Notes: generated from the sequence alone by a model not told the origin. Positions 1 through 24,237 are shown, counted from the first letter of the stretch. The stretch is DNA of 64,000 nucleotides from Cyanophora paradoxa CCMP329 (GCA_004431415.1 QPMI01000141.1:1-64000), one strand, 5' to 3'. Numbers and translations: made by a program.

Positions 1-277
1 TGTCGCATCCGACATTATCGGACGCTCATTTATATTTGTGAGCCGCTAGGGCTCTAGATTATGTCAGCCTTCGAGCTGCTGGACGACGGCGCCTAGCTAG
101 TTAGAGCGCCGCGGTCACTTGTATTCGTGTCGGGGTACGCCGTATCTGGACGGGTACACCAGAGTCGAGGTTTGGTGACTAACTACAGCGACACTCGCCA
201 TTCCCTGCCCTGCCGAGCTTGCACTCCGCACGGGCGTCCCGCGCGCACGATTAGACACACTAATCGCGCACGCGACA
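1..277 (+). repeat. 5' LTR
   Basis: Starts TGTCGC, ends GCGACA; matches 5070-5349 apart from three single-base indels. Confidence 0.93.
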
Positions 278-300
278 GGCGCCATTCTGCCGGATCGAAC
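278..300 (+). promoter_or_regulatory. Primer-binding site complementary to a tRNA 3' end
   Basis: GGCGCCATTCTGCCGGATCGAAC abuts the LTR; its reverse complement reads G-TTCGATC (T-loop), CGGCA, GAATGGC, G, CC, i.e. T-arm, acceptor strand, discriminator and CC(A). Confidence 0.75.
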
Positions 301-764
301 CTTCAAGGGTCTGAGTCCGTATCGCTCTCCCCAGCCCGCCGCGCAGCGCGCATCGCTGCGCCGCCTTGCCCAGTGTCTATTGGAGCCAGAGACCTGCTTT
401 CCGCGCGAGCGCCGTCCCCACGGTTGCTTTGCGTTTGAGTGCGCCGCCCTGTACCGCTTGCGGTTGGACGGTAGTGCACCGGAAACGTCTCTAGTGCCTA
501 TCGCGGGCTTCGGGTCATCCCAGACCGAAGCGCACGCGCCGAGCTCTCTCTCGAGAGTCTCATCATTGCCTGTCCCATCGCCGGTTGCGAGCAACCGTGC
601 CACGGAGACTGCTGCGAGCAGCTCTCTAAGTGTCCCTGAGTCGCGCTCTTGCGTGACCGCGAGATCTCCGCGCCGGATTCTGCAGCGAGCTGCAGATCAA
701 ATCCCGCGCCTAGTGCTCTCCCTGGCATCTTGTTCTTGCGGCTTTACGTTGCAAAGAGAACACC

Positions 765-2281
765 ATGTCAAACTCTTCTGAACTGATCAGTTCTGAAGTC
801 CGTAGCCGGCTGTCTGCCCTCGCGCACATCGCGCCTGTGCATGCCCAGGCTGGTGCTGCTTTGCATGTGCAGCAACTTGCTGCCTCCGCTGCGGCGGACG
901 ATGATCCCGTGCGGATCGCGTTCCTGCCTGCGAATCCGCGCCTCGCCGATGGCGACCGGTTCCGGAAGGATGTGCGGAACTTCCAGTCGGCCTGCCGACG
1001 AAGTACTTGTTTGGCCCGGATTCTGCCGGTGGCCAGGAGTACTCAAAGTCGGAGGCACTAGCCGGAGTGATCGTTGGGCGAATCCGCCCCGGCGCTCTCC
1101 GCGCTGAGATCGAGCGCAAGCGTGACCTCTATGAGGCCTCGGTTGCTCTCCTAGAGCGTGACCGCGCCACGCTCGCTCGTCTCGAGCTTGTCCCGGCAAA
1201 CCTGCGGTCTGCCGAGGATGATGCCAATATTCTCGCTCTGCAGCAGAGCTGCGTGCGTGATGAGGCCACGATCGTGGCCGTGCGTGACTCGTACTTGCGT
1301 GCCCCCGGGCTGCTCGATACGATCACGGCGTGGATTCACAAGCTGCGCCACATGCGGCCCGCCGGGCCCTCACTGAGCCCTACACGGGCGAGGACCCCCG
1401 CTCGTGGCATGACTGGGTCATGCCCCTTGTGCGGCACACACTGCCGCCGGCCAGCGGCTCGCTGCGTACTATGCGGATTGCCTGCGCATCGCGCTCGAGG
1501 CCCGCTCGACGAGCGAGGACCCGGAATATCAGAACCTTGAGGTTCGGATGGCCGGCTTCGCCAAAGAGAACGAGCGCACCATGCGCGAGTTCCTCGCTGC
1601 GCTGCAGCAGCGCCTCCTTGCCCGTGACGGCGCTGTCTCGCCGCTCGAGCTTGATGATATTTTCATCGAGCAGTGCACGCGCCACGGCTGCCGCGCCGTG
1701 TTCCGCCTGCACCGGCAGCTGCTGAGCCGCCAGAGGCAAAACGGACCCGTATCCTGCAGGCAAAGTTTGCCAAGGATGAGTCCTCGAGCTCCCTGGCCCT
1801 GCTGCGCCTCGGGACGCTGACCCCAGGGCCCAGCCCTCGATCTCTGCACGTGGGTCCTCTTGGGCTGTGCAGTCCCGCTCGCCTGCCGCCGTCGCGGAGG
1901 TGCTGCGGCGCATGTCTGAGCTCGGGTACCCCGAGTACCCCCCTCAGACTGCTATGGGTGCTCAGATGACCCTAGCGTCCCCGTTGCGGCGCGGCGTCAT
2001 TGGGCAAATGTGTGCCCCAAGCGCACCCCATTCGCCCCAGTACGCCCTGGGTGCACCGCGGCCAGTACTATCGGCCAAAGCAATCCCAAGAGGATGCTGC
2101 CGACGAGCAAGAGTACTGGTCCGACGAGGGAAAACAGGACCCAGACGAAGTCTGCGGTCGCTGTGGCGAGGCAGGGCACCACCACAGTGCCTGCTCCGAC
2201 CCCCCACACGGGCTGCTCGCCCGCGCTTCCTGCGCCCTCAAGCTCGGCGGCTCCAACCGCACGCCCTGCGGCGGAGCGTGA
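765..2281 (+). pseudogene. gag: Gag-like protein with C-terminal CX2CX4HX4C zinc knuckle, split over several frames
   Basis: Consecutive + frames 765-1061, 1007-1540, 1548-1820, 1867-, 2000-2281; helical, charged content; CGRCGEAGHHHSAC knuckle; position just downstream of the PBS. Frameshifts may be decay or read errors. Confidence 0.72.
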
Positions 2282-2494
2282 GTGAGCACGTGCACTAGCT
2301 GCACTAGGGTCTGGCCGGCTTGGGCAGCCGCCAGAACAGCCCTGCTCGTAACCGCGATTCAATTTTTCGCGGAGCCTGGGCCTCCCCTGCGAGAGCCCCA
2401 TGTGTCGCTGTAATAAGCGGCCAATATACCTGCCTCTGAGCAGGCTGTATATTTGTACACTTGTACATAATTTCAGACGTCGGGGACGACGTCT

Positions 2495-2839
2495 TCCGAG
2501 AGGAGGAGTGAGCATGGGCATGCTGCACGAGCAGTGCAAGCGCTGCCGCTAGCCCTCCTGCCCCGAGGCTTGCTTGGATCTGTGGCCGCCGGCCAAGATC
2601 AAATAGCACTCGCGAAAGAGATCTAGAGCCCCAATCGAGTGCTGTCGAGCAGCCCGAGCGGCCACGGGTGCCCCTCTTTCCGAGAGGAGGAGTACCTCTT
2701 TCGCTGAAGCCTGCAAAGAGGCCCACGGCCGGTGCCGCAATTGCGAGCCCTCCTGCTTGCCTCAATCTAGATCTGTGGCCAGTGGCCGAGATCAGATCGC
2801 AAACCCCAAGCGGGTACCAGTCTTTCCGAGAGGAGGAGT
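2495..2839 (+). repeat. Three internal copies of the 15-mer TCCGAGAGGAGGAGT within diverged ~150-185-bp tandem units
   Basis: Exact copies at 2495-2509, 2679-2693, 2825-2839, identical to 5055-5069; shared AGCCCTCCTGC and GATCTGTGGCC blocks between them. Confidence 0.85.
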
Positions 2840-3871
2840 CCCTCCAAGACTCTCTCGTCGAAAGCCTGCGATTTCGCGCGGCGCACTGCGCATGCAGTCG
2901 CTGATCATGAGTGCGTCCACGGGCCTGGCGAAGTCCAGGAAAGTGGCCTCAGGCCTTGCGGCCAGAGCTGGCCCTTGCTGTAGCTGGCCCTTGCGGCAGC
3001 TAATGCTCCGATCGTGAGCTCCTCGGCCTGAGAGCGGCCTAGCTGCCGTTGCAAAATGAGATGTAATCCGCGGAGCCTTGAGCTCGGGATGCACTCTCAA
3101 GAGAAGCTCGATGCCAGAGGCACGATGCCCGGCCCCGCGGCCGGCGAGCGCCTGACGGCATGCCGTGAGCTTGACAGGCGGCCCGTGAGCCCCTGCGAAA
3201 ATCGTGAGCTTCCAAGCTCCAATGAAGGGCGAGCTTGATCATGAGCACACAGTGCCCTCGAGAGCTCGAGCCCTGAAATAAAGTCCTGGCTCGCCCCTAG
3301 GCGTTCAGGCACCAGCAGCTCCATCGAGAGCTTTGCACTATCGTGAACTTAAAGTCCTGGTGATGCCCGCCAAGTTAGCGCCCAGGCCGCACGTGTTGGT
3401 TCCGGGGCCCGGACCGAACGTTAGCGGGGCAAGGGCCTGGTGCCCAGCCCAAAGACCTGGTGAACTGCCCGACAAGTTGGCACCCAGGCGGCACGCTGCG
3501 GCTGCAGGCCGAGCGGTGCGACGGGCCGCGAGCCCTGCTCACAAGCTAGGAGCTTGGAGACCCGGCGGCCGGCCTGTTGAGGCGGCGCCAGAAGGACACC
3601 CATGAGTCCCGTCTCGCATGCGGCCGGCCTGGCCCCAAGGCGGTCAAGGCGGCGGGTGGTCCAGGCCGGAAGCCACGGCCACAGTGCCAACGGCTCCGGC
3701 GGGAGCGGCTTGATCATGAGATCTAGAAAGCCGGCTCTGAGCTGCGTCCCGACCCCGCGAGAGGGCGAGGACAGGAGAGCGGCTGCGCTAGCCCTTGAGC
3801 AGCGCTTTGTGAAGAGCCGCCCGTGAAGGGTTGGGCTGAGACGGGCCCCAGAGCCCCGCGAAACATCGCGA

Positions 3872-4036
3872 AAGTCCCGGGCGGAAAGGGTGAGCCACGG
3901 GCGGCCGGGAGCCTTGAGCACAGCTCGGCATGGCGACAGGGCGAGCGTCCCTCAGTAAGTCCCGGGCGGAAGGATGAGCCGCGGGCGGCCGTTAGCCTTG
4001 AGCACAGCTCGGCGCGGTGACAGGGCGGGAGACCCT
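3872..4036 (+). repeat. Two-copy tandem repeat, period 85 bp
   Basis: AAGTCCCGGGCGGAA...AGCCTTGAGCACAGCTCGGC...GACAGGGCG at 3872 and 3957. Confidence 0.85.
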
Positions 4037-4044
4037 TGCAAAGA

Positions 4045-4385
4045 CCTAGCCGAGCCCTAGGACGCGCCCTGCGTCTGCAGAAGGGTCGGTAGGCGGCTGT
4101 GACGCCGGGTCCTGCCCCGGGTACAGCGACAGGAGAGGAAAATGCCTCCTTATGGAAGTCCTGGCGTGGTACCAGGGCGCGCCTTGCGCCGGCGGAGGTA
4201 CACGCAGGCGGTCGTGACGCCGGATTCCGCTCCGGGTACGACGACAGGGGATGACCAATTCCCCCTCCGTGTAAGACCTGGCGTGGCACCAGGGCGCGCC
4301 TTGCGCCGGTGGGGGTACACGCAGGCGGTCGTGGCGCCGGATCCCACTCCGGGCACGACGACTGGGGACGCACAATTCCCCCATT
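4045..4385 (+). repeat. Tandem repeat, period 117 bp, about three copies (first diverged)
   Basis: CCTGGCGTGG(T/C)ACCAGGGCGCGCCTTGCGCCGG at 4160 and 4277; diverged copy upstream. Confidence 0.85.
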
Positions 4386-4895
4386 CAGGGCTCTGCACCG
4401 GGGACGCTCGGTGGCAGTTCGCCTGGGAGGGTCACGTCCCCCTCGTGATGGACATGCATGCACGGGTCGGGCAGGGCACCTGCCGTCACGCGTGACGGTG
4501 GTTTGAGCCTTGTGGGCGGCGCCTAGCCTCGCCCTGGAGATTCCTAGCTCCACCGCCGTCGGGGGAACCCGATCCGACGCCGTGATAAATGCAGTGAAGG
4601 CGCGGCGTGTGCCTGAGCAGCGGCGCTAGACGTGCTGCTTAGCCCTAAACATTGGGACGGGCATTTCGCTGTGGGCTATCGAGCGCTGTCGCGACGCTAC
4701 GCCCCGCGTTGCTGCTGCAGCGTGCGCCTTTGCGGCTAACATGCTGCGCGATGAGGGCAGGGCCCCCTCGGCTTCTGTCCCCTTCCAATTCCGCTCGCCT
4801 CGTGCGAGTTGCCTGGGCCGCCGGCCCGAAGTTGGACCTCGCCCCCTGGGCACTACATGCTGGAGTCGTGCCGGCGCGGCACCTGCCGGGCGACA

Positions 4896-5015
4896 GTCTT
4901 TTCGATTCCCGGCAGTCGCCGGACATGTACATAGCCGGGCTCGGCGTCTTTTCTATTCCCGGCAGTTGCCAGGCACGGACGGACTCTGAGTCTTTTTCGA
5001 TTCCCGGCAGTAGCC
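4896..5015 (+). repeat. Three spaced ~25-bp repeats GTCTTTTC(G/T)ATTCCCGGCAGTNGCC
   Basis: Copies at 4896-4920, 4946-4970, 4990-5015. Confidence 0.85.
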
Positions 5016-5054
5016 GGTCGATTTGTATTTATTTAGACCCGCGCGGACGCGGGA

Positions 5055-5069
5055 TCCGAGAGGAGGAGT
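5055..5069 (+). promoter_or_regulatory. Polypurine tract (plus-strand primer site)
   Basis: GAGAGGAGGAG immediately upstream of the 3' LTR TG. Confidence 0.85.
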
Positions 5070-5349
5070 TGTCGCATCCGACATTATCGGACGCTCATTT
5101 ATATTTGTGAGCCGCTAGGGCTCTAGATTATGTCAGCCTTCGAGCTGCTGGACCGACGGCGCCTAGGCTAGTTAGAGCGCCGCGGTCACTTGTATTCGTG
5201 TCGGGGTACGCCGTATCTGGACGGGTACACCCAGAGTCGAGGTTTGGTGACTAACTACAGCGACACTCGCCATTCCCTGCCCTGCCGAGCTTGCACTCCG
5301 CACGGGCGTCCCGCGCGCACGATTAGACACACTAATCGCGCACGCGACA
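5070..5349 (+). repeat. 3' LTR
   Basis: Copy of 1-277; followed by GAGAT (candidate target-site duplication). Confidence 0.93.
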
Positions 5350-5593
5350 GAGATGTTGGAGTATATGATCCAGCTCGAAATAGGTTCGTTCTGGTTTTAA
5401 TTACATTGCTAGGATCGAGCGTAATGGTTGTTATTGAAGCATCAGCAGCTAGATTATACATATTGTGAAAAAGTTCTAGCGATTCAATTCTAGCCGACTT
5501 CACGTTTGCTAACGCCCGAGGCAGATTAATTTTGAAATTCGAGGACGTGCCTTCGAACCGATCTCTAGAATCAACATTTACGCGGAGTTTCAT
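5350..5593 (-). pseudogene. N-terminal part of putative minor capsid (penton) protein, interrupted by the LTR element
   Basis: MKLRVNVDSRDR...NFKINLP...NVKSARIESLEL.HNMYN...AGSYT resembles the IDSRDR-type N-terminus of PLV/NCLDV pentons; divergent from MCP; after ~81 codons the frame enters LTR sequence. Confidence 0.7.
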
Positions 5594-5637: not shown

Positions 5638-6867
5638 ATGGCGCAAGCAGGAACTACTCTGAAAGAGCTCCTAACAACCAAAGGATCGAACGAGCTTTAT
5701 CTATCGCCAGGTCTAACTGTCGGTGTTAGCCCAAAGTTTAAGCCTTTCCTTGAGACGATCCGTCCGCGAGGCAACTCATACGGATTCGCACAGACTGCTG
5801 CTTTCGACCTTCCGCGCAAGCAACTTCTAAATGGCGTCTCCCTATATTTTAAGGTAACAGTCGCTGGTGGAGCTGCCGCTTCGGTTCTTCCTAATGGTGC
5901 TGGTGCATTTATTGAAAACGTACGCTTTGTTCATGGATCTTTCAAAATGGTAATTCCCGGTGATTGGCTTACAGTGAACGCACTGATTGATAACAGCGTC
6001 GCATCCGCCCAAGCTTTTGCTAGCAGCTACGGCTTTGGAAAAGACGCAGCTCTAGAGATTCTCGATGCTAGCCGAGAGTACGTGCTGAAGATCCCATCAC
6101 AGCTTTGGGACAATTCATATTTCCCTCTGCTAGCACTTGCGGATATGCCAACCGTCGAGATTGACTTCCGTTCGGCTGGTGTGATTGGAACTGTTGCTGA
6201 TGCTATTGCGACTCTAACGGATTGTGCCCTGGTTTGTCAGTTCGTGAATATTCCTAGCGAAGAGGCAGAGTCTATGCTAAAATCTGCGAACGAGTCTGGC
6301 GGTATTAGAATTCCCTTTACTGAAATCATTTCAAAGCGCTCACGCCAGCTTAAGACGGACGACGCAGGAAACGCTGTCGAAATATCCCTTGCTAACGTTA
6401 GCGGCCTTGTGCACGCGATCCTGATGACAGTGCGTAATGCGAATCACCTGGGCACTCGCAATCATAATTCATTTGCCGGTAACGGTAACGCTTTGAAGAT
6501 TGATTCGTTTGAGATCATGCACAATAATCGCACTCTCGATATCAGTAATAAGCCAATCTCTGGATTTGTTTCGAGCTGCTATCATATCCCAACTCAATAT
6601 CGCGGAGCAACAACTGGTAATTCAGCCCTTGGTTTTGAAGACGGAAATGTCTATGGTATTGTGCTTTCGAAATCTGGCAAAGACTCCCTCCACAACGCTG
6701 TCCTCGGCTACACAGACTTCTTCAACTCAAGCAGCAGCTACTGCTCCCTCACTGTCACCGGATGTACAAACACCGCACCAGCTGTAGTCGATTTTCACGT
6801 CCTGCGCCACAACGTTCTCGTAATTAATTCATATCAAATGTCGACTCTAAAAGTAAGTAACTTCTAA
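5638..6867 (+). CDS. Putative double jelly-roll major capsid protein
   Basis: 409 aa, beta-strand-rich; N-terminal YGF...AFDLPR..LLNGVSLYF and C-terminal RHNVLVI typical of DJR MCPs; next to the packaging ATPase. Confidence 0.82.
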   Translation: MAQAGTTLKELLTTKGSNELYLSPGLTVGVSPKFKPFLETIRPRGNSYGFAQTAAFDLPRKQLLNGVSLYFKVTVAGGAAASVLPNGAGAFIENVRFVHGSFKMVIPGDWLTVNALIDNSVASAQAFASSYGFGKDAALEILDASREYVLKIPSQLWDNSYFPLLALADMPTVEIDFRSAGVIGTVADAIATLTDCALVCQFVNIPSEEAESMLKSANESGGIRIPFTEIISKRSRQLKTDDAGNAVEISLANVSGLVHAILMTVRNANHLGTRNHNSFAGNGNALKIDSFEIMHNNRTLDISNKPISGFVSSCYHIPTQYRGATTGNSALGFEDGNVYGIVLSKSGKDSLHNAVLGYTDFFNSSSSYCSLTVTGCTNTAPAVVDFHVLRHNVLVINSYQMSTLKVSNF

Positions 6868-6868
6868 A

Positions 6869-7573
6869 ATGGATATCAAATTGTTTGATCCAGCAGAAGT
6901 AAAACTTCCTAAACGGTTCTTGTTTGTCGGCCCCACCAACTCGGGCAAAAGCACCTACGTAAAACACGTATTAAATGCTGTAGCAAATCAGCTAGACGAT
7001 ATTTACGTCTTCAGCACAACGGCATTTACAGAACAGTGGGACGATACCACTCGCAAGAGCAATATTTATGAAGAATGGGATACAGTTTTGGTTGAAGAAA
7101 TTTTAGAACGTCAAAAAGAAAGACGACGCAAGAAAGATGATCGAAAAATAGCAATTGTTTTAGATGACTTGCTTGATAATGACCTAGTAAACGTCCACAG
7201 TGACCGATTAATGCAAAAGCTTTTTACTAGCGGAAGACATTACAATATATCGCTCTTTATCACGACACAACGTCTATGTGGCATTAGTCCGACGATTCGG
7301 CGAAATTGCGAATATGTATGCTTTTCGTCGATTCTATCGAATATTAAAGAGTTCGATTGCGTCTTTGCCGAATACAACGCCGGAGCGAGTCGAGCAGTTT
7401 TAATGCGTCTTTTCCTTGAATGGGGTCATTCGTATCAGGTTTTGATATTTGAAGCCGCGACCGTGGACCGCGTCTACTCTGTTGATAAATCTTCTGGAGA
7501 TTTTTCGGCTCTATCAAGCTTTTTACACGCAAGAAAGCGGCCCGGTCGAAAGCCGGCAACCAATCTTGTCTAA
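6869..7573 (+). CDS. A32-like (FtsK/HerA) DNA-packaging ATPase
   Basis: Walker A GPTNSGKS, Walker B AIVLDD, GRHYNISLFITTQ and SPTIRRNC motifs. Confidence 0.93.
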   Translation: MDIKLFDPAEVKLPKRFLFVGPTNSGKSTYVKHVLNAVANQLDDIYVFSTTAFTEQWDDTTRKSNIYEEWDTVLVEEILERQKERRRKKDDRKIAIVLDDLLDNDLVNVHSDRLMQKLFTSGRHYNISLFITTQRLCGISPTIRRNCEYVCFSSILSNIKEFDCVFAEYNAGASRAVLMRLFLEWGHSYQVLIFEAATVDRVYSVDKSSGDFSALSSFLHARKRPGRKPATNLV

Positions 7574-7986: not shown

Positions 7987-8019
7987 CTCTTTTTCGTTAC
8001 TTTTACATATTGCAATATA

Positions 8020-8040
8020 TTTAAGGCATATTCACGCGAT
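8020..8040 (-). promoter_or_regulatory. 21-bp element, left copy of a perfect inverted repeat
   Basis: TTTAAGGCATATTCACGCGAT is the exact reverse complement of 9007-9027. Confidence 0.7.
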
Positions 8041-8988
8041 TCTACCTTCGAATTCTCTTTGCGTAATATCCAGCGGGTTTGGCGCCTGCTCTGAGCAATG
8101 GTTCAGCAGCAATTTCGAGTTTTTTAACTCACGATCCTTCCGGTTTTGACCCGCATACGTTTTCGTTTCAACGAGACCCTCTCTCCGAAGCTGACGATCT
8201 TGCTTCGATCTAGCAGTCGCTCTTTCAATCTTAGACTGGTCAGGTAGTTCTTGTGGCGCACGAATCTCGGATGGTTTAACACGTCTAGAAATTTCCACAC
8301 CTTGCTTTGTAATTAACCTAACACGGTTCTTATCAACGCCAGCAACAACGTAGGTCTCTTTGCTTGGTTTCGCCAGACCCTTTGCAAACACGCTTGGCTT
8401 AGGCTCAAGTATCTTCACCTCCGAACCTGGTTTAGGCATATTTGTGTTCTCTCGTTCAATATCGTTCTGTCGCTGTCGAACTTGATGTAGCTGCTCGGCA
8501 ACCTGTGTTTTTTCACGCATCCACGTTGGTGATCGCTCTTCACCAAATGCATTGTGTGCTGTTTCATTGTACGCCTTCAAAATCGCAGGCAAGCGTGAGA
8601 GGAAATGTGGTGATCCGCGTGCTTCTGTGTCAGCTCGAATAAGTGCTCGCAATGTCCTAGCGAACCTGTCAATAATTCCAAGTTTGTTACCTTTAGAAAT
8701 GTGGTCATCTTTGGTAACATCAGTGTGCATTTTCAACGAGTTCTCTTCGGCCATTGCCCGAATTGCTGCTGTGTTAAAACCGTTGTCGGCGGAGAAACCC
8801 CAGATCCCTGGTAGCTCCGCGATCATTTTTGGAAGTTGTTTGAATGTTTCTATTTTTCGCACGATAGCGAAACGGGTTGCAATCTCGACCGCTGCAAACA
8901 GACGATACCTACCAATAAATAATACATCAATTTGCCAGACACCCGGTGGAGCTGTTATCGTGTACATTCTTCTAATTGTCACACACAT
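8032..8988 (-). CDS. Retroviral-like (rve, DDE-type) integrase
   Basis: PGVWQID...AVEIATRF...SADNGF...LGIIDRFARTLR...YNETAH; SH3-like C-terminal segment. The ORF is open from 9111 but Met at 8988 or 8967 is more likely. Confidence 0.88.
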   Translation of the reverse strand: MCVTIRRMYTITAPPGVWQIDVLFIGRYRLFAAVEIATRFAIVRKIETFKQLPKMIAELPGIWGFSADNGFNTAAIRAMAEENSLKMHTDVTKDDHISKGNKLGIIDRFARTLRALIRADTEARGSPHFLSRLPAILKAYNETAHNAFGEERSPTWMREKTQVAEQLHQVRQRQNDIERENTNMPKPGSEVKILEPKPSVFAKGLAKPSKETYVVAGVDKNRVRLITKQGVEISRRVKPSEIRAPQELPDQSKIERATARSKQDRQLRREGLVETKTYAGQNRKDRELKNSKLLLNHCSEQAPNPLDITQREFEGRIA

Positions 8989-9006: not shown

Positions 9007-9027
9007 ATCGCGTGAATATGCCTTAAA
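9007..9027 (+). promoter_or_regulatory. 21-bp element, right copy of a perfect inverted repeat
   Basis: ATCGCGTGAATATGCCTTAAA, 59 bp before the ATG at 9066. Confidence 0.7.
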
Positions 9028-9065
9028 AAGATTGTGATTATGATTAATAATAAAGTGATATTGTA

Positions 9066-9356
9066 ATGGAGGCGGAAAACTGTTTGGCACGCAAGCGTGG
9101 TCGTCCTCCAAAGTCTATGTCTCCGGAAGTAATAGAAGAGATGAAGAAGAATCGATCAGCAGCGGTAAAAGCTCGTTATCATTCAGATGAGGAATTTCGT
9201 AAGCGCAAACTACAAGCGACGTATGAATATCAGGAAAGAAATATTGAACGTAAAAGGGAACAATGTCGTAATTATAGACGTCGGCAAAGACAATTGCTTC
9301 TAACTTTATTGGAAAAGTTTGGTGCTCAATCGGTTGAGGTAGTTTCAGCAGCCTAA
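9066..9356 (+). CDS. Small basic AT-hook/coiled-coil protein
   Basis: RKRGRPPK AT-hook followed by an Arg/Lys/Glu-rich helix. Confidence 0.7.
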   Translation: MEAENCLARKRGRPPKSMSPEVIEEMKKNRSAAVKARYHSDEEFRKRKLQATYEYQERNIERKREQCRNYRRRQRQLLLTLLEKFGAQSVEVVSAA

Positions 9357-9386
9357 TGTTTGGAGGTTCGCTGCAAACTTCTTTTT

Positions 9387-12300
9387 TCAAATACGAGTGC
9401 GACAATGTCCAAGCGCCATTGTTTCTACGCCATTATCGCAAAGCCAGCGTTTTGTATCTAGCGAATGTAGTGCCTGTTTTGAGGTTTCTTGCACATAAAC
9501 ACGATGTTTCTTTGAGCGCATACCTCGAATTCCATTCACTTCACATGATAAGTATAGTTTCTGTCCATCTACAACTTTACCAAGAACACAATCAATATAT
9601 CTTTCCCGTGTAAGCTGGTCGGCAAAGCTTTTAGAAATCCCCTTGCATCGACGCTCTTGCTTACCACTGTCGATCTGATACCAGTAACTCTTAGGTCGGT
9701 TCGCGATGAATTCTACCATTTGCTTACCATTGCACTCATCTTTGAAATTGCCAAGGGCTGTCGATTCTTTCTTCATGGTGGCAATTTCTTCGTCCGACAT
9801 TCCTGCAAAGAATCGATGTGACTCCGGATATTTGCTAACATCTAAAAGGTGACTTATATTTTTCAGATCAGCGTACAAATCATCTGTCTCAATTCTAAGG
9901 ATTAGCGAGTCAGTATCCGTTGCAAGCAATTTAACACGCGGACCCAGAGCGGTTTTAGTTGCTCGTAATACATTTTAAACATGTGTAGTTTTGACATTTC
10001 CAAAACACTGAATCCACTGTATATCGGTTTGTTTAATTTGACTTGTGAACGCCGTTTAGAGATAAATACAAGATCCTCATCATATTTGACAATTTGCTTC
10101 AATAAATTTGGTTGTGCGGCAATTTTTGACAGTCTGACACTATCAGTCACAAGCTCCGCATCGCAATGCTTTCTCACGTTTTCCATATTTTTGCCGTATA
10201 ATGCATTAGTCTTGAGTTTGAATAGATCTCGCACATGATCAAAGGTTGCGGCCTGACGCATTTCGGCATTTTTTTCCACATACGGTTTCATCCAAGCAGT
10301 CTGCTTGTACGTAATAACACGATGAATTTTACTCACCACAAAACCTTGACTTCTGTAAAATTTGAGTAGTCTCCCATCAACAACATATTTCTTCAATGGA
10401 AGCAGACTTGGAATAAGCTTTCGCGTCTTCATCTGAATGCAATCCTTTTTAATCATATCCTGTTGTGATCTAGATAGCATCGTTGGATCTACAATCATTG
10501 ATACTGGCGCAATCGGGTAATCATTAAATTTCTCGTGAAGCTCATCTGGAATGTAAGCATCAATTTCAAGCGTTGCTCCTATATCACCGTCATAATCGAA
10601 ACCATCATGGTCAAAGGTTTCTGGATCAACCCATTTAAAATCTCCAATCGGATGTTTCTCTAACATCGCATATCCATACAACGAATTTGCATCTATATAG
10701 TACAGATATACTGATGGTTTGGATGGATCATAATCAACCATGTCCTTATTGTTCGCTTTGCATATCGATTTGACACCATTGAAATACCACCACGAATACC
10801 TGTCTCGAAGAATCTGAACATATCCTCTTGACCCTCATGCAACAGCTGTAATTGCCCACCTGTATATTTAGAGCAGCATCCCAACTAAAGCCTGGTAGTG
10901 ACATGTAATATGCAGGATCTATGCCATCTGTAGCGCGAGATGTTTCCCGATACGCTTGAAACACATCTGATAGTAACGTTATATCAAGTTTCATATAAGC
11001 AATCGTGTAATCTAACATTGTCTTACATTTCAGCTTTTTCCAAACCTTCTGTGCGTGCTCATAATCTTCAAGCTTGCACTTTTCGTTTTTCAAGTCATTG
11101 TGAAACGCCTCTATCGGAGGTAGCTTACGGTCTGCAAGCCGCTGCCAGGAATTTACGTAGCTGTAGGGATAGATGCCCTTTCTTGTCATCAAATTAAACG
11201 TTTCCGCATCGGGACATAACTCGCGAGTTTGCTTTTTCAGTTCATCTGGAAGCGATGCCGCTAGCTTTTCGAGCGTTGCTGATAGATGTTGCATGCTGTC
11301 GCGGAATACGTAAATGCCGTACTCAATTTGACTCATTTTCTCGGAGTTTTGGAACATCACTTCGAAACGATTTGAAAGCGGTGTCTCAGATCTCTCGAAT
11401 TTGATTTTTTCTTTAACAAGCTGGTTCTTGATAAATCCTGGAACTCGTTTCTCATACTCCTCAGCATTTATGCTCAGTTTGTTCATCGTCCATTCCCTCA
11501 CGCTTTGATTTTGATATGTCTTCTCAAGTCGTGTTCGGACTGATCCAAGTTTTTCAATCAACTTTTTCTTAAATTCAATATGTGCGGCATGTCTACGAAC
11601 ACTTCCCTTTGCAATTGCGCGGATCAGCAAATGCGAATCAAATCCTCGAGCATTGTGAGCAATCAAGAAAACACGTTTTGATTTGAATCTTCTACGGTTG
11701 CAGCCAGGACAAGCAGCACCTTTGAAATCACCATTATCGTGATCGTGGTCCCAAACCTTTTTGATCTTCTCGCTGAATTCAACGTTACAGATATAGCAAC
11801 TAGTAGCTGAATCAAACGTTTGCTTTGCAACATCTGTTTTTATCGCTGGTACCGATGCATTTAGCCCTTTCTTTAAAGTTGGTTCCATTGAATCTAGCCA
11901 TTCAACAAACCTCTCCTCACATCTACGTCCGCTATTTACGTGCCAATATTTTGTATCATCATTGCCTGTGATCAAACATCCAACAGCAGCTGGTATTTGA
12001 CATGCAATTTCCTCTGTCTTTCCATTTTTCACAGAGTTCGTAGACATTGCAAGTGTTTCAAAATCATAGGCTCCAACATATCGTGCCGTTATCGTATTCG
12101 CATGGTTCAGGAATTTCAATGTTGAACGGTCGGGTTTTGGAAGCACATCACGGCCATGTTCGTCTCGTTCGAGGCATCTGTCTTCTTCGATGTGTTTCTG
12201 AAGAGCATCATCACCGCGAAATCCTTTTTGACAAGCGAGACAATAGCTGCGTGCGTTCTTGTCAATTCCAGACGAGAAAACATTCGACTCACGTTCTTGA

Positions 12301-13426
12301 TCCAAACGAAGTGGCCATAACTACCTTCGCCAGTCACGAATAGCAGAGGAATAGCATCTCGAGCCGCTGAAATATAATATGGAGTGATATCTAGCTTTTC
12401 ATTATCAGCCACATACACGCATAGCTTCAGATTGTTTGCCTCTTCAAACCGACGGAATATCTTTGAATCAAGCGGGACAGGATAACTGAGCATTGATGTG
12501 TTGATCGTACTTAGGTGCTCTCTGTACTTGGCAGCACGTTGAGCATGCCGATCGACTGGGAACTTTGCGGATAAAACTGAATACGTAAAACACATATTAT
12601 CTGGTGCCTCCACGTTTATGACTGCGTTCTTCTTGCTAATCCATGACGGAAGTTCAAATGATGCGCCACCAACGGCGCGGACATGTTCTAGACTTTGTAT
12701 GTAAAAATACGTCCACGTTTCTAACTCCCAGCTGTCATTCTCCTGTTCAGCTCTTCCATCGATCTCAACACATCTGTCACGCAGCTCAACTTCAATGTTT
12801 GCACCGGGGAGGATACGGTAGAATTGATCTTCACTGATTTCATCTGTTTTGAAGCGGTTAGTAAAACCTTCTGTGCCATTCTGCCTATGCTTAAAAATAC
12901 CTTTTGCATATACCTTTATAGATAGCCCCATTCGTGTTTCATTCGCCGCAGTCAATCGCTCAGTTATGAAACGCTCAAATTTTGCTTTGAAATCTGGGGT
13001 GTTCGCCATGTACGACGCGAGCGATGTAACTCTTAGTCCGTTCGGCCTGATGATCGCAGCGCTTTCGAGTGCGTATATTCCATCTAGTGCCGTCTCGCGT
13101 GAACCATCTCCAGCAAGTTCCTCATTTGGCTGTCCAGGGAGTTCATTGAAAAGTGCTACCAGTTCAGCTTGGTTCTCAGCGATGATTATCTGCACAGTTC
13201 GCTCTGAGGCACGTCTCGTTTGTCCGACTACAGCAGCGAGCATTGAAAGCACATCAACAGTTCGTTGCAGCGTCACAAGTCGAGTTCGAGATCCTGGTGA
13301 TGAGATTCGGAGTAATTTGTTTCGATATAGTCCATGAATACGTCTACGCTCATACAAAGTTTGTGCTAGACCTACGATCTGTTGTTTTAATAACGCTATC
13401 TGACGACGACGAGCAAATTGATTCAT
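9387..13426 (-). CDS. polB: Protein-primed family B DNA polymerase (~1,350 aa) with vOTU-like and endonuclease VII-like domains; four apparent frameshifts
   Basis: Joined frames give INVEAPDNMCF...GHFVWIK (vOTU-like), AYDFET (ExoI), CYIC...DHDH...CPGCN, HNARGFD (ExoII), KGIYPY, YMKLD (ExoIII), YIDANSLYG, KLKTNALYGK, TDTDS, PKSY. Confidence 0.95.
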
Positions 13427-13887
13427 TTTGAAAGTGTCGCTAGAAATAAATTTCGGTTGATCAGCGCGATCTCTTATATCATTTTATATTGTTGCTGAAA
13501 CCTCTAAGACATAGTTATAACCTGAACCTAAACTTGGACTACGTCATCGGTGGGAATAATTAGCGTCTAGCTAGAACCTGAACTCGAGTATGTAATTAGA
13601 TTCCGATGATATAGTAATTACGTGTAGCATAACCCTTGAAACCTCTTTGTTTTTTAGATTCGAAATACACACAATTAACGTCTAAATGATGTTGAAGATG
13701 ATTCTGAGACCGGCGCTTTGGGGGTCCGCCTCAAATCATTGCTATATCTTTTGCAAGATCGATCGGTCTAGACGTTGGATATTACCTAGCGGTTGCTGTT
13801 TGGAAGGAGAGGTAGACCAGAGGGAGAGGAAGGTGGTAGACGTAAGGAGAGAGTGGACGGAAGTGGTGGTTGGGAAGGCGTTGGAGT

Positions 13888-13904
13888 GGGTGGGTTGGGG
13901 TGGG
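13888..13904 (+). other. Canonical G-quadruplex motif in a purine-skewed subterminal tract
   Basis: GGGTGGGTTGGGGTGGG inside the G/A-rich stretch 13800-13940. Confidence 0.55.
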
Positions 13905-14006
13905 TTTGGAGGAGTGAGGGTGAGAAAGAGGGGGGTGGGCTGGCACCCCCACTATCTCATTTTTTTGCGGTTCAAGCCCGCGTAGTACTATGGTTTAGTG
14001 TACCCA

Positions 14007-14295
14007 TGGGACGCTTTCGCTGGCGGAAAATGCCATGGGACCCTTTCGCTGGCAGGAAATGCCAATCGTTTACTACAGCGTGGGACCCTTTAATTCGCTG
14101 GCAGAAAATGCCAATATATTACTATAACGAGTCGAGTCAAAAAGCTTCAGTCTGAAACTCGGGCGATTTGTTGATTGGTCAATTTATATCATACAGGACG
14201 CATGGGTACGTCAAAATTGCTTACTACGGCGAGTCTAGTCAAAAAGCCCCAGTCGGAAACTCGAGCGATTTGGTGATTGGTCAATTTAAATCCAT
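14007..14295. repeat. Subterminal repeats of the viral element (probable TIR/origin region)
   Basis: Three ~29-35-bp units TGGGAC...TCGCTGGC(N7)GCCA at 14007, 14036, 14081; two ~74-bp units at 14119 and 14221, each with GATTGG. Confidence 0.8.
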
Positions 14296-14340
14296 GGACT
14301 TATAGCTGTACATGTATACGTACGGTCTGTACCCAGCTAG

Positions 14341-14382
14341 CAAGCGGGGGGGGTGCGGGGGGGGCGGAGCCCCCCCTGCTTG
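14341..14382. other. GC-rich terminal hairpin
   Basis: GGGGGGG-CGGAG-CCCCCC stem-loop, with an alternative CAAGC(G)n...(C)nTGCTTG pairing, ~40 bp from the proposed element end. Confidence 0.65.
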
Positions 14383-14510
14383 TTCAAACAGGCGAAGGCG
14401 TCAAATATACATAGAACTCTACTAGGCTAGGCTTTGCACTACCTAACTCGACATGTATACACATGAAATACAAATGCAACAACGCGAACGAGGGGCCGCA
14501 GGCGCCCCGT

Positions 14511-16585: not shown

Positions 16586-18568
16586 TCAGGCGGCTGTGAA
16601 GTCGTTGGAGACGCCGGTGATGCCGGCGACGTCGAGCAGGAACTTCTCCGCCGCGTTCGCCGCCAGCGCGCTCGGCCCGCCGGCCCCCTCGCCCCCCGCC
16701 TCCGCCGCCGCCCGCTCCAGATCCACCGCCCACACCTCCACGCTCGCCACCTTGAACGTCGCCCCGTGCGCCAGGCCCGCCGCCGGCACCCCGAACCTGC
16801 ACCCAGCGTCAGGGAAGGGGCAGGGGAGGGGATGGGGGTACGGGGGTCGCACGTCGTGTTGGGACCGCGGCTCTCCCCCCCCTCGAGGTCCCCGTCGAGG
16901 AAGAGGCCCCAGAAGCCGAACTGGCCCCCCATCCCGAACCCGTTCCTGTACCCCCGGGGGCCTCAGAGAATGGAAGGCGGGGCGGCTGCGCCCCGGCGGC
17001 CGGGCGCACGGGAGGGTCATCTGCTGGCTGTTCGCGTAGACAAAGTTCGCGTTGACGCCCGTGGAGGGGTACAGCGCCAGCCGCGGCGCCGCCTGGAACA
17101 GGAACGCCTCCCCGCTCCCGTACCTGCGCACGGGCTCGGAACGTGCAGGGGTACACTCCTCGAGGCGGGGGCCTGGGCACTCACCACTTGTTGTCCTTGC
17201 GGAGCGACTCGGGCACAAAGCCGCCGAAGACGTGCCTGCGGGGGTACGTGAGCAGAGAAGGAAGGGGGGCGAGGTTCTGCGGCGCGCGAGGCGTACCCGC
17301 CGTCGTCCTTGACGGCCACGATGCAGGGGCCCCGCCCGAAGGCCCGCGCCTGCCCCGGGCCGCTCAGGCGGCGCGGGGAGGGCCGAGAGCATAAGGCGCG
17401 GGCACGGCGAAGCGGCTGAAGGCCTGGCCGTCGCGGGAGGAGCTGTAGACGAGGTCCCAGCGCTCCGTGAGGGGCCGCGGGAGGGCCCCGCAGAGCGCCC
17501 AGACCGCCTCCCGCGGCAGCAGCGCCGGCCGCCCGCCGGCCGAGCACATCAGCGGGAGGGGCTGCGGGGCAGCGGGGGCGAGGGGCAGCCAGCCGGCGGC
17601 GGCGGCGAGCTGGGCGAGGAGGTGGCGGAAGGCGGGGAGGGCCCGGGCGGCGGCCGCCCACTCCCAGCGCTCGACGAGGGCCACGAGGCCCCCCGGGGCC
17701 CCCTCCGCGAGGACGCCCCGGAGCACCGCGGGGCGCGCCGCCGCCTCCCCGGCGCGCATGTCCAGCCGCTCGCGCTCCTTGTCCTCCGCGCTCTCGCTCT
17801 TGTCCGTCACGAGGATCGTCCCCTTCTGCACGCTCAGCGGCGCATCCGCCTCGTCCGCCGCCGCCCCCGCGCCGCCCTCCGGGGACCGCCGGAGCGCGGC
17901 CCGGGGCTCTTGTCCATCAGCCGCGCCTCCTCGTCCTCCCGCCCCGCCGCCCGACGCCCCGCGCCGCCTCCTCCGCCGCCTTCGCCGCCGCCCGCTCCGC
18001 CTTTGCGCGCGCCGCTTCCTCGGCGGCGGCCCGCGCGCGCGCCGCCTCCTCTGCCACGGCCTTCTCGATCGCCGCCGCACGCTCGCCGAGCCGCCGCTGC
18101 GCCCGCTCGAAGACCGCCGCCAGCGCCGCCTCCGCGAACGCCCTCCGCGCCGGCTCGGCCGGGGCCGCGGCCTCCAGCACCGCAATGCGCTCGTCCAGGC
18201 CGCCGCGCGCTCCCGCGATGACGCCGCGCACGAAGCCCGCCGCGGAGAGCCTCGGCTCGCGGGCGTGCGCGTGCTTCGACGACTTGTGCTTCTCGGAGGC
18301 GGCATGCCGCTGCTCCTGCGCCACGAAAGCGGCGAAGAGCGGCCCCGCGACGGCCGGCGGGAGCGCGAATGCCCGCTGCGCGCGGCGTCAGCGACGTACG
18401 CGCGGAGCATGTGCGCCACAGCTCGCTGACCTCGAACTCAGCGCGCTCGATATCCTTCTCTCCCGGCCAGCACTTTAGGAGGGCGGCAGCGTCCGGACCG
18501 GCAGCGGCGAGCTCCCGCTGCAGCGCCTCCGCGTCCTTCTGCTTCGAGCCGCCGTGCTGGTTCCCCAT
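16586..18568 (-). CDS. TLDc-domain protein (MEAK7/TLDC1-like), multi-exon
   Basis: MGN start; WDLVYSSSRDG, VAVKDDGG..FGGF, YGSGEAFLF, GFGMGG..GFWGLFLD, VASVEVW. Confidence 0.85.
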
Positions 18569-18721
18569 CGCCGCGGCTCTCTGCTACTGTGACGTTGGGC
18601 GATGATAGGCGGCGCTCGTTGATGAGGTTTGGCGAGCAGGCTTGAAGTTGAAGTGGTTCAAGAGGGTACAGGGTTCACAGCTTGTTCGTGGAGAATGCCC
18701 ACCGTGGGGGGCCTCATCAAG

Positions 18722-21350
18722 ATGCAGCGTGCGGCGGGCGCCAGCATGAAGCTGGTGCGCAGCCCGCCGCGCCCTCCGCTCACTCCGAGCCGCGCATTGC
18801 CTCCCGAACCTCCTCGCTGTCGACACGCGGCCGTGAAGGCCGCGCGCGCCATACCTTGTTTATCTATCACAGCACGGCGATGTAAGGCGATTTGCATCGT
18901 CTAATAGGCAGGACGCGACCCGTCGCTTGCGTCGGCGAGCACGCGGTCTTAGCGGGCCGAACCTTAAGAGCCGGCTTCGTGTATCTGGGAAGCATTCGAT
19001 AGCCGTTATTCCGAGTCTGATGCCCCCGTGTTTGCTCGTGTCGCAGGCGCGCCCCCAGCTGCGCAGCGCCCTGGGCCTCCGGCCGATGTCCGTGCCTGCG
19101 AAGGCCTATGATCCTACCGATGGCAAGCAGATCTTCTCCAACCCGAAGATGATCTGGCCGGAGACCAAGGTCCGCATGTGCCTGTCCGAGGCTTGCCGCA
19201 TCACCGCTGATTGACGCGCAGGTCACGGTGCTGCCGAACGGCCTCCGCGTCGCCACCGAGCGCACGCCGTCGATCAACAGCACTGTCTCCGTTGGCGTGT
19301 GGGTCGATGCCGGCAGCCGGTTCGAGACTGAGAAGAACAACGGCGTCGCGCACTTCCTGGAGCACATGGCCTTCAAGGTGCGCTCTCGCAGGAGCGTGCA
19401 TATCATTCGTTTTCCTTTCCTCCTGCACTTGCAGAATCGCCGCTTAAGACGAGTATTGAGCGTCGATTTTGAAGGGTGCAGAGACTAGCACATCGCCTAT
19501 TTAGCGACGGGCTCGCGTGCACGGCTATGCCGCGCGCCCCACGCTTAAGACGAGACATTCTTAACATTTAGCACTTGTTTCAATCATCACGCGTGGCGCA
19601 CCCTTCGGGTCGCCGCCCTCCGTCCTGGAGGCGCCCCCTTCCTTGTTTTGTGGCCATCCTCCCCCTTCCGCACTTTGCAGAATCGCCGCTTAAGAAACAG
19701 TATTGAGCGCCGATTTTGAAGGGTGCGAAGAGCACCTCGCTGGAAGCTTGAAGCGGGGGCCGCGCTCCCCGCGGCCCCCGCGTCCGAAGGCGGGACACTC
19801 ACTGCTCCTTTCTTCTCCCCTCTCTTCCTTTTCCTTTGCGTCCCACCTCGGCCGGGCGCCTGACCTCGCTCCGCAGGGCACCAAGCGCCGGACGCAGTAC
19901 GACCTTGAGACGGAGGTCGAGAACATCGGCGGGCACCTGAACGCCTACACCTCGCGCGAGCAGGTCCGCCCGGCACCGCATAGCGCCCCGCCGCGCCGCG
20001 CTGGGGCGTGGCTCCCCGCCAGAGCTGACGCGGCGGGGGGCGGGCAGACCTGCTACTACGCGAAGGTGCACAAGGGGAACACGGCGCAGGCGGTGGACAT
20101 CCTGTCGGACATCCTCCAGAACTCCGTCTTCTCCGCCGAGAAGTGCGCCGCCCCCGAGAGTGCCCGGCCCGCGCCCGCGCCGCGGGGCGCCCCGCTGAGC
20201 GCCGGCGGCAGCGTCGAGCGGGAGCGGGACGTCATCCTCCGCGAGATGGAGGAGATCGACGCACACACGCAGGAGTTCATCTTCGACCAGCTCCACGCCC
20301 AGGTCCGCCCCCGCGCCCGCGCCCCGCCCCCGCTCCGGCGCGCCGCGCACCGCCCGCCGCGCCGGCCTGACCTCCCTCCTCGCGCTCCTGCAGGCGTTCC
20401 AGGGCTCGGCGCTCGGCCGCACGATCCTGGGCGAGCAGTCGAACGTGGAGCAGATCACGCGCGACGACTGCCTGGCGTTCATCCGGGAGCACTACACGGC
20501 GCCCCGCATGGTCCTCGCCGCCGCCGGCGCCGTCGACCACGACGAGCTCGTCCAGCTCGCCACCAAGCACTTCATGAGCCTGCCCACCGACCCCGCCAAG
20601 GTCGCCCCCGCCCCCGCGCCCTTCGTCGGCTCCGAGGTGCCCGCGCCCGCGCCCGCGCCCGCGCCCCTCCCCGCCCCCTCCCGCAGCCGAGCCGAGCGTC
20701 TGGGGCGCTCGCAGGTCCGCGTGCGCAACGACGAGATGCCGGAGCTCTCGTTCGCGCTGGCGTACAAGACCTGCGGCTGGACGCACTCGGACGCCGTGCC
20801 GCTCATGGTCATGCAGGCGATGGTCGGCTCGTGGGACGTCGCCCACTGGGCCGGCGCGCACGCCTCGTCCGGCCTGGGCAAGATGGTCACGCAGTACGGC
20901 ATCGCGAACCGCTTCTACGGCTTCAACACGACCTACTCGGACACCGGCCTCTTCGGCGTCTACGCCGAGGTCAACCCGGAGGGGGACACGCCCCAGGACA
21001 TGGTCTACGCCATCCAGCACGAGCTCGTCCGCTTCTGCTTCCGGCCCGAGGAGGACGAGGTGGAGCGCGCCAAGGCGAACCTCAAGGTCCAGATCCTCAC
21101 GCAGCTCGAGCACGGGTCGACGGAGGTGGCGGAGGACATCGGGCGGCAGATGATCGCGTACGGGCGGCGGATACCGATCCCCGAGATGTTCGCGCGCATC
21201 GACGCCGTCAACGTCGACACCATCAAGGAGGTCGCCTCCCGCTACATCTACGACCGCGACCACGCCGCCGCCTCGTTCGGCCCCGTCAACAACCAGAACC
21301 TCCCCGACTACAACTGGGTCCGCCGCCGCTCCTACTGGCTCCGCTATTAG
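18722..21350 (+). CDS. PMPCB: Mitochondrial processing peptidase beta subunit (M16), multi-exon
   Basis: [57 protein letters not shown]-terminal [16 protein letters not shown]. Confidence 0.95.
19423..19560 (+). ncRNA. Candidate intronic box H/ACA snoRNA 1
   Basis: Hairpin, H box AGACTA (19482-19487), hairpin, ACA (19555-19557); pocket strands GCAGA and TTTGAA, 14 nt from the H box. Confidence 0.7.
19668..19800 (+). ncRNA. Candidate intronic box H/ACA snoRNA 2
   Basis: Paralogous 5' hairpin, H box AGAGCA (19729-19734), different 3' hairpin, ACA (19795-19797). Confidence 0.7.
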
Positions 21351-21546
21351 GCGCCCCCCCGGCCGCCCCGTCGCCCGCCCCAACGCCCATCTCGCGGGCG
21401 GCGGCACCCCCCAGCCTAGTGCTCCCCAGTTCAGCTAGCCGTTCGTTTCCCCGCGCGCGACGCGCAGGGCAGTCATAATCTTCTTTCCAATTCAGTACTC
21501 CATGAGTAGCGAGAGGCGCGCGAGCACAGGCGCCGCTCAGGTCTGG

Positions 21547-24210: not shown

Positions 24211-24237
24211 GGCCGCGCCCCGCGGCCTCGCGCACTC

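What the first reader, a model, noticed from the sequence alone, without database searches (positions are those of the whole stretch)
1..5593. Pol-less LTR retroelement inserted in the penton gene of an endogenous Polinton-like virus
Seen: the viral ORF starting at 5593 runs straight into the 3' LTR at 5349; the LTRs differ only by three 1-nt indels; no RT, RNase H or integrase is visible in the element. Known: nested retrotransposons are described in endogenous virophages (tyrosine-recombinase Ngaro elements in Cafeteria EMALEs), but this element is a TG...CA/PBS/PPT LTR type. Inference: a recent, three-layer parasitism (host, provirus, non-autonomous retroelement) that either disables virion formation or lets the element hitchhike in viral genomes complemented in trans; the family may favour these proviruses as targets.
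Basis: partly seen in the sequence, partly recalled or inferred. Interest (0 to 1): 0.85.

Follow-up and report, generated by a model that had tools for sequence, protein, structure and literature searches.

The report
Gag-only retrotransposon inside an algal provirus
In an alga's genome, a 5.3-kb retrotransposon lacking its copying enzymes interrupts a likely minor capsid gene in a copy of a multi-copy resident virus, probably by chance (such nesting is already published), and its one unusual trait is a primer site that looks built for the selenocysteine tRNA.

Summary
The anatomy is real. LTRs lie at 1-277 and 5070-5349 (no substitutions, three one-base indels), with a primer site, a polypurine tract and no pol. 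The element has one frameshifted gag-like ORF, 98-100% identical over its first 314 residues to a Cyanophora paradoxa gene model; 31 related models were retrieved (16 short, 14 long, 1 unassigned). Short-read contigs from 3 of 3 runs hold the uninterrupted viral gene at high depth, and 1 of 3 holds the LTR-virus junction. So the insertion is likely genuine, and intact sister copies exist. The left flank and target-site duplication could not be seen, and the penton label is only a lead. The novelty claim fails: Copia and Gypsy elements nested in Polinton-like viruses, the shuttle idea and trans-complementation are all published. Targeting is unsupported: two of four other LTR flanks are host-like, and 0.3-1.3 copies inside proviruses are expected by chance. 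New here: most copies carry a primer site one base longer than the window's, which fits the 13-base-pair helix and four invariant bases of selenocysteine tRNA. The host tRNA gene was unavailable, so this is unconfirmed (about 55%).

The parts
1..277 (+). 5' LTR (TG...CA); three 1-nt deletions against the 3' LTR, likely assembly errors
   Evidence: window begins at its first base, left flank not available
278..301 (+). Primer-binding site complementary to a tRNA 3' end through the T-loop; most copies carry one more base behind 293, giving tRNA-Sec-like spacing
   Evidence: table 4 (3300/3552, 594.6/635.7, 204.4/210.6 depth in three DNA runs; 0/8.11 in X20); criteria from PMC5330540
765..2304 (+). 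gag-like ORF, about 510 aa, broken by about 8 frame switches in this assembly; coiled-coil hairpin, helical region, C-terminal CX2CX4HX4C knuckle at 2153
   Evidence: switches at 992, 1348, 1449 coincide with 1-nt insertions in short-read contigs at 990, 1347, 1448
2496..2839 (+). Three exact internal copies of the 14-nt terminal polypurine tract (2496, 2680, 2826), around the element centre (2675); central-PPT-like (inferred)
   Evidence: 4 matches, chance mean 0.06; family D7
2305..5055 (+). Non-coding 3' region with tandem repeats (84-nt at 3872-4027, 117-nt at 4091-4382, 35-nt x3 at 4896-5025); no pol remnant detected
5056..5069 (+). Terminal polypurine tract abutting the 3' LTR
5070..5349 (+). 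3' LTR, 280 nt
5350..5354 (+). Candidate 5-nt target-site duplication (right copy only; length untested); present once in the empty-site allele
5350..5593 (-). First 81 codons of a likely minor capsid (penton) gene, cut by the LTR; continues without the LTR in sister copies
5638..6867 (+). Likely major capsid protein, 409 aa
   Evidence: 0.98 to clusters with Capsid_N / Capsid_NCLDV on 12-18% of members; a lead; no HMM hit
6869..7573 (+). A32-type packaging ATPase
   Evidence: PF04665 E 1.9e-11, above cut-off
8032..8988 (-). Likely rve integrase of the virus, between 28-nt inverted repeats (8013-8040, 9007-9034)
   Evidence: PF00665 E 0.008, below cut-off; contigs cross both repeat borders
9387..13426 (-). 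Protein-primed DNA polymerase B with endonuclease VII domain, in four ORF pieces in this assembly (the 12116-13426 piece has no family hit)
13500..14385 (.). Right terminal region of the provirus and an adjoining repeat; exact end not pinned (near 13.95 kb or 14.38 kb); host-depth DNA starts at about 14355-14385

Best explanation
A recent copy of a dispersed, likely gag-only LTR retrotransposon family of the glaucophyte alga Cyanophora paradoxa sits in a likely minor capsid gene of one, or a minority, of many similar endogenous Polinton-like virus copies, where it probably landed by untargeted integration. Mechanism, step by step. (1) A source copy is transcribed from LTR to LTR (inferred). 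(2) Its own Gag-like protein packages the RNA (inferred from position and zinc knuckle). (3) Protease, reverse transcriptase and integrase come in trans, most likely from the long relatives whose Gag is 83-84% identical (absence of pol shown; partner inferred, and no RT or integrase was found in its gene models). (4) Minus-strand synthesis is primed at 278-301 by a host tRNA, more likely tRNA-Sec than a canonical tRNA (site shown; identity about 55%). (5) Plus-strand synthesis starts at the terminal purine tract and possibly at the central copies (motifs shown; use inferred). (6) Integration cut the viral gene after codon 81 (shown by the empty-site allele). The result is one crippled gene among intact sister copies, so the cell would keep its capsid genes.
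For: LTR, primer site and PPT anatomy. No pol family in 79 of 79 fragments. None of 31 relatives matches the element beyond about 2400 except one mis-spliced tail of a short-type model. 16 short-type models end at the same place on different contigs, so the gag-only form is a family, not a decayed single copy. Pfam zf-CCHC above cut-off in 11 of 14 long relatives. Empty-site allele in X1, X3 and X6, at contig depth about 1006, 339 and 40 or more; junction contig 5308-5378 with 0 differences at depth 10.2 in X6, beside another LTR-flank contig at 11. Chance expectation 0.3-1.25 nested copies, P(>=1) 0.27-0.71, from 156 published glaucophyte elements, an assumed 12-20 kb each, 100 Mb and 17-40 copies. 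Two of four other flanks have 20 and 24 G+C of 30, values seen in 0.1% and 0% of 30-mers of this virus.
Against: The junction contig has 42 letters left and 29 right of the joint, under the tool's 31-letter rule, and was seen in 1 of 3 runs; X6 may be related to the source of the assembly. No target-site duplication was seen. The Gag label has no capsid-domain HMM or fold match (model pLDDT 42.6). Neither 14 long relatives nor the window show RT or integrase, so no autonomous partner was demonstrated; only P0012 has a DTG protease-like motif, which itself hit nothing. Two of four flanks (15 and 16 G+C of 30) are compatible with viral DNA. The flanks seen belong to LTR variants that need not be the gag-only subfamily. 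Contig depth is not a copy number.
Confidence: 0.72

Rival explanations
1. The family prefers Polinton-like proviruses as targets, as Ngaro types 1 and 2a prefer virophages in Cafeteria, and uses them as shuttles, with capsid proteins supplied by intact sister copies.
For: Precedent for preference in PMC8547959. Intact sister alleles exist. 2 of 4 other flanks have virus-compatible GC (likelihood ratio about 6 and 3 against host DNA of this window). Pfam RT was counted in 4 of 156 glaucophyte elements.
Against: 2 of 4 flanks are host-like; the two GC-poorer flanks do not match this window's virus; one nested copy is expected by chance; 31 models lie on many contigs. Adding 5.3 kb to a genome of which about 8.6-9 kb is visible may exceed packaging limits (inference, untested).
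Confidence: 0.13
2. The junction or the element's interior is an assembly product: the contig begins exactly at a repeat border, so the 5' LTR and interior may come from other copies, and the provirus may hold only a solo LTR or nothing.
For: The window starts at the first base of the LTR. The stretch has many one-base deletions. X1 and X3 show no junction contig: depth at 5360-5366 equals the empty allele alone.
Against: An exact junction contig exists in X6. The window copy has private letters where all laid contigs read otherwise (for example 667, 2515, 4333-4454, 4858), so it is not the family majority, and these contig sets evidently drop low-depth variants inside repeats, which would also drop the junction.
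Confidence: 0.09
3. The element is a one-off decayed copy of an autonomous retrotransposon, inert and frameshifted, or its ORF is not a Gag at all.
For: About 8 frame switches in the ORF; no capsid-domain match.
Against: 3 of the switches coincide with one-base insertions in short-read contigs (120 further indel rows were not shown). An unbroken 516-aa model exists elsewhere. 16 short-type models share the same short C-terminus, LTRs have no substitutions, and no pol remnant was found.
Confidence: 0.06

Closest known systems
LTR retrotransposons nested in Polinton-like viruses: Copia in a Guillardia theta PLV (PMC4642659), Ty3/Gypsy in a Hydrurus foetidus PLV (PMC10120064), 4-9.5 kb direct-repeat elements in cryptophyte, ochrophyte and Tyrannomonas PLVs (PMC12220804, PMC12747079)
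   Same: GC-rich LTR-bounded element inside an AT-richer provirus, disrupting a core gene; the same immobilisation, shuttle and in-trans ideas are stated there (passages read).
   Different: Those described carry reverse transcriptase, and one survey detected them by GC shift plus RT-type domains; this one has none and could be missed that way. Host is a glaucophyte; the gene hit is a likely minor capsid gene.
TR-GAG non-autonomous LTR retrotransposons (Chaparro et al. 2015, PMC4350172)
   Same: TG...CA LTRs, PPT, one gag-like ORF, no RT, many dispersed copies (abstract and part 2 of 5 of the main section read).
   Different: 5.35 kb against under 4 kb; no Retrotrans_gag or UBN2 Pfam hit; 2.7-kb non-coding 3' region with three internal PPT copies; described from land plants.
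Ngaro retrotransposons in Cafeteria EMALE virophages (PMC8547959)
   Same: Retroelement nested in an endogenous small DNA virus of a GC-rich protist (passages read).
   Different: Ngaro has split direct repeats, RT, RNase H and a tyrosine recombinase, and types 1 and 2a show a measured preference for virophages; none of this is shown here.
Cyanophora / glaucophyte Polinton-like viruses (156 elements in Table S6 of PMC12220804)
   Same: A32 ATPase (139 of 156), rve (85), PolB_2 (49), no maturation protease (0) (supplement rows read).
   Different: Whether this locus is one of the 156 was not determined.

Membership tests
LTR retrotransposon | Direct terminal repeats with TG...CA ends | tested here: met
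LTR retrotransposon | tRNA primer-binding site next to the 5' LTR | tested here: met
   lacks the first T of TGG
LTR retrotransposon | Polypurine tract next to the 3' LTR | tested here: met
LTR retrotransposon | 4-6 nt target-site duplication | not testable with these tools
   left flank outside window; no genome held; both read-laying runs used (14, 28)
LTR retrotransposon | Gag ORF | tested here: inconclusive
   CCHC motif in window; Pfam zf-CCHC in 11 of 14 long relatives; no capsid-domain match
Autonomous Ty3/Gypsy or Ty1/Copia | pol with RT, RNase H and integrase | tested here: not met
   (79 of 79 fragments without such a family); superfamily cannot be assigned
TR-GAG | Single gag ORF, no RT | tested here: met
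   (Gag identity itself is inferred)
TR-GAG | Length under 4 kb | tested here: not met
   5349 nt; inside the 1-6 kb filter of the original search. Works like TR-GAG, not filed as a member.
TR-GAG | Gag recognised by Retrotrans_gag or UBN2 profiles | tested here: not met
   0 of 31 models
Ngaro / DIRS | Split direct repeats and tyrosine recombinase | tested here: not met
Polinton-like virus | A32-type packaging ATPase | tested here: met
Polinton-like virus | Double jelly-roll major capsid protein | tested here: inconclusive
   Atlas 0.98; single-sequence model unusable, pLDDT 30; no homolog
Polinton-like virus | Single jelly-roll minor capsid protein (penton) | tested here: inconclusive
   Atlas 0.97, DUF5901 on 28% of one cluster; synteny; no HMM or structure match
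Polinton-like virus | Protein-primed PolB and rve integrase (Polinton-type module) | tested here: met
   PolB_2 above cut-off; rve only E 0.008, below cut-off
Polinton-like virus | Terminal inverted repeats and target-site duplication | not testable with these tools
   left end outside the window
tRNA-Sec-type primer site | 13 bases between T-loop and discriminator (12 in canonical tRNAs) | tested here: inconclusive
   met in the majority form (93-97% of depth in 3 DNA runs); not met in the window's own letters or in the X20 contig; criterion from PMC5330540
tRNA-Sec-type primer site | Invariant U55, C61, C66 and G73 of eukaryotic tRNA-Sec | tested here: met
   read by hand against PMC5330540; U55 and C61 are common to most tRNAs (own knowledge), so C66 and G73 carry the weight
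tRNA-Sec-type primer site | Complementarity to the host's actual tRNA-Sec gene | not testable with these tools
   no genome; no matching sequence in the papers or supplements searched; none available for PMC3531208

The most novel reading that the evidence does not exclude
A glaucophyte LTR retrotransposon family primes reverse transcription with the selenocysteine tRNA, usually a single-copy gene in algae. That would tie its mobility to selenium metabolism and bar it from hosts that lost the Sec system (land plants, many fungi). Its gag-only members spread without pol and colonise proviruses unseen by RT-based surveys.
Probability: 0.5. Interest if true: 0.62.

Novelty: new variant of a known kind. 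Interest (0 to 1): 0.38.

Why it matters
Nesting of LTR elements in Polinton-like viruses is known, so the headline is a further case. Two things add value. Gag-only elements lack the RT marker used in at least one survey, so nesting may be under-counted. And the host has about 150 published proviruses and dozens of element copies, which makes the targeting question directly testable by one mapping run. If the primer is tRNA-Sec, it would be a primer type that the searches here did not find in print, and it would give a simple test of host-range limits set by tRNA supply.

Tried and rejected
Whole genome: none held, so no left flank and no genome-wide LTR map. Expression: no RNA holder listed. 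X20 has spliced host contigs and diverged LTR-family contigs, but this subfamily's contigs (depth 3-6) are no deeper than intergenic viral contigs (2-3), so nothing is concluded. Homologs of the penton piece, capsid, ATPase and PolB: none in the protein database or viral contigs. The deep HMMER search never ran, so remote relatives of the penton piece remain unsearched. Folds: capsid model pLDDT 30; Gag model pLDDT 42.6 matched only generic coiled coils; absence of a capsid match means nothing at that quality. Primer tRNA: the window form had 0 metagenome matches; the majority form had 1, inside a bacterial protein gene with no tRNA, rejected as chance. Rfam found nothing relevant. Supplements of PMC5330540, PMC6627142 and PMC7678280 hold no matching text sequence (one scanned file and all figures unsearched), and none could be read for PMC3531208; these may bear on the tRNA-Sec claim. 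One tRNAscan-based table lists the UCA anticodon as missing in C. paradoxa, whereas two other papers report tRNA-Sec in glaucophytes and note that default scans miss it. The rve ORF as a nested DNA transposon: rejected, since contigs cross both inverted-repeat borders at about ten times host depth. RNA fold of the 5' leader: z -1.59, not notable. Earlier scan notes: none for this genome or sequence.
Full report
Observation. The first 5349 bases are one LTR element. Its repeats (1-277 and 5070-5349) begin TG, end CA and differ by no substitution and three one-base indels, each in a short run of one letter. Directly behind the 5' LTR lies a stretch whose reverse complement reads as a tRNA 3' end including the T-loop. 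It is the only match of that pattern in the window, with a chance of about 4.5e-6 per place. A 14-nt purine tract abuts the 3' LTR and recurs exactly three more times at 2496, 2680 and 2826 (4 matches against 0.06 expected). None of 79 six-frame fragments hit an RT, RNase H, integrase or protease family.

The virus. Right of 5349 the GC content drops from 65% to 43%, against 73% in host DNA. There follow an 81-codon ORF start on the minus strand cut by the LTR, a 409-aa ORF, an A32 packaging ATPase (E 1.9e-11), a weak rve integrase (E 0.008, below cut-off) and a protein-primed PolB in pieces. The 409-aa ORF resembles double jelly-roll capsid clusters at 0.98, and the cut ORF resembles small viral clusters at 0.97, one of them with DUF5901 on 28% of members. 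Both are leads below the tool's reliable recognition range. With the capsid-minor capsid-ATPase module described for these viruses (PMC4642659, passages), 'penton' is likely but not shown.

Host and family. One frame of the internal ORF found 14 clusters, and the 6 whose members were listed are all EukProt models of Cyanophora paradoxa. Of 31 models retrieved, 16 are short, 14 long and 1 unassigned. P0001 (516 aa) tiles the window from 765 to 2304 through about 8 frame switches, 98-100% identical over its first 314 residues. The first three switches (992, 1348, 1449) coincide with one-base insertions that short-read contigs carry at 990, 1347 and 1448. The frameshifts, and by analogy the LTR indels, are therefore probably assembly errors (inference). 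P0002 shares the window's private residues and may be this locus's own model, so it is not independent. The long models share the first 310 residues at 83-84% identity (3 compared); 11 of 14 carry a Pfam zinc knuckle above cut-off, and one ends in a DTG protease-like motif that matched nothing. None shows RT or integrase. They are candidate partners, not demonstrated ones. The Gag label rests on position and knuckle; profile and fold searches gave no capsid match.

Is the insertion real? Twenty listed runs of coded organism A hold the stretch or part of it (18 studies; one may be the source). Laid on 5290-5470, contigs of X1, X3 and X6 match from 5349 onward and continue leftward for 24-84 letters with non-LTR sequence. 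The 30 letters shown add nine sense codons in the ORF's frame (read by hand; nine open codons alone is weak, the contig continuity is the evidence). Depth of this empty allele is about 1006 in X1, against 52-87 for host and flank contigs; depth is only a rough guide, but intact sister copies clearly exist. X6 also holds an exact junction contig (5308-5378, depth 10.2, beside another LTR-flank contig at 11). It has 29 letters on the viral side, under the tool's 31-letter rule. X1 and X3 have no such contig, but they also lack the window's own letters at several places inside the element, so low-depth variants are being dropped and absence says little. The left flank and duplication remain unseen.

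Targeting. Four other LTR 3' flanks were shown. Two have 20 and 24 G+C of 30, values found in 0.1% and 0% of this virus's 30-mers; two have 15 and 16, which fit either, and they do not match the window. With 156 published glaucophyte elements (PMC12220804 Table S6 rows), an assumed 12-20 kb each, a 100-Mb genome and 17-40 copies, 0.3-1.25 nested copies are expected by chance. Strict targeting is excluded; moderate enrichment is open.

The primer site. In three DNA runs 93-97% of contig depth carries one more base behind 293; the X20 contig at depth 8.11 does not. The window form has 12 bases between T-loop and discriminator, as in canonical tRNAs. The majority form has 13, which PMC5330540 (passages) gives as the mark of tRNA-Sec, and it fits the invariant U55, C61, C66 and G73 listed there. 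It also lets complementarity run one base further into a correctly paired T-stem. Glaucophytes retain tRNA-Sec according to PMC13578239 and PMC3531208 (passages); a tRNAscan table lists UCA as missing in this species (PMC7678280, one passage); PMC6627142 reports the Sec machinery except SBP2 (passages). The host gene could not be compared. Searches for a tRNA-Sec-primed retroelement (listings only, 20 of 609 shown) and passages of a survey of plant primer sites (PMC6317226, 0 mentions of selenocysteine) gave no precedent. That is weak evidence of absence. I put it at about 55%.

Comparison. LTR elements nested in Polinton-like viruses are published: Copia in a Guillardia PLV, with the in-trans idea (PMC4642659); Ty3/Gypsy in a Hydrurus PLV (PMC10120064); and many direct-repeat elements that disrupt genes or may use the virus as a shuttle (PMC12220804, PMC12747079). 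All were read as passages. Ngaro elements with measured preference are in PMC8547959 (passages). Gag-only elements are known as TR-GAG (PMC4350172, abstract and part 2 of 5). This element works like one but exceeds 4 kb and lacks the defining Pfam hits, so it is not filed there. PMC7609411 (passages) agrees on the 13-bp helix. An unchecked earlier scan note on a chytrid nest reached a similar 'ordinary pile-up' view and is not counted as support.

Verdict. A real and recent gag-only LTR insertion into a copy of a multi-copy algal provirus, most likely untargeted: a new variant of a known kind. Interest 0.38, carried mainly by the possible tRNA-Sec primer.

Noticed in passing
window 2496-2839: Three exact internal copies of the terminal polypurine tract around the element centre; other family copies skip about 300 nt here (joints 2510-2810 and 2513-2822), keeping fewer. 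Resembles the central PPT of lentiviruses and Ty1 (recalled).
   Followed up: partly
P0009, P0013, P0027, P0028, P0031: Long relatives carry about 550-1600 aa of unclassified sequence after the zinc knuckle, with no Pfam or (3 models tested) PHROG match; a protease-like tail appears in one splice model. May be an unusually large LTR element with extra ORFs.
   Followed up: partly
window 6435-6930: A second capsid/ATPase subfamily about 88% identical lies at high depth (1746 in X1), while a diverged variant at 9320-9744 is much shallower (191): possible exchange of capsid and replication modules between provirus families.
   Followed up: no
window 8013-8040 and 9007-9034: 28-nt inverted repeats (93%) bracket the rve ORF exactly; fixed in the family, function unexplained.
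   Followed up: partly
window 13958-14385: A diverged repeat with 29-nt tandem units and a G-run/C-run hairpin at about 14340-14381 lies between the provirus and host DNA; a spliced host transcript contig (X20) runs into it as far as 14189.
   Followed up: no
window 5354 (table 7): One other LTR flank, seen in all three runs, aligns for five letters past the LTR end, as if it began with the same 5-mer as this target site; it may be loose alignment or a target-sequence bias.
   Followed up: no
P0017 residues 1-200: A gene model fuses an unknown protein to a short-type gag; no Pfam or PHROG match. Could mark another insertion next to a viral or host gene.
   Followed up: partly
window 16586-30374: Ordinary host genes with short GC-rich introns: TLDc protein, mitochondrial processing peptidase beta, dyskerin-like PUA protein.
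   Followed up: no
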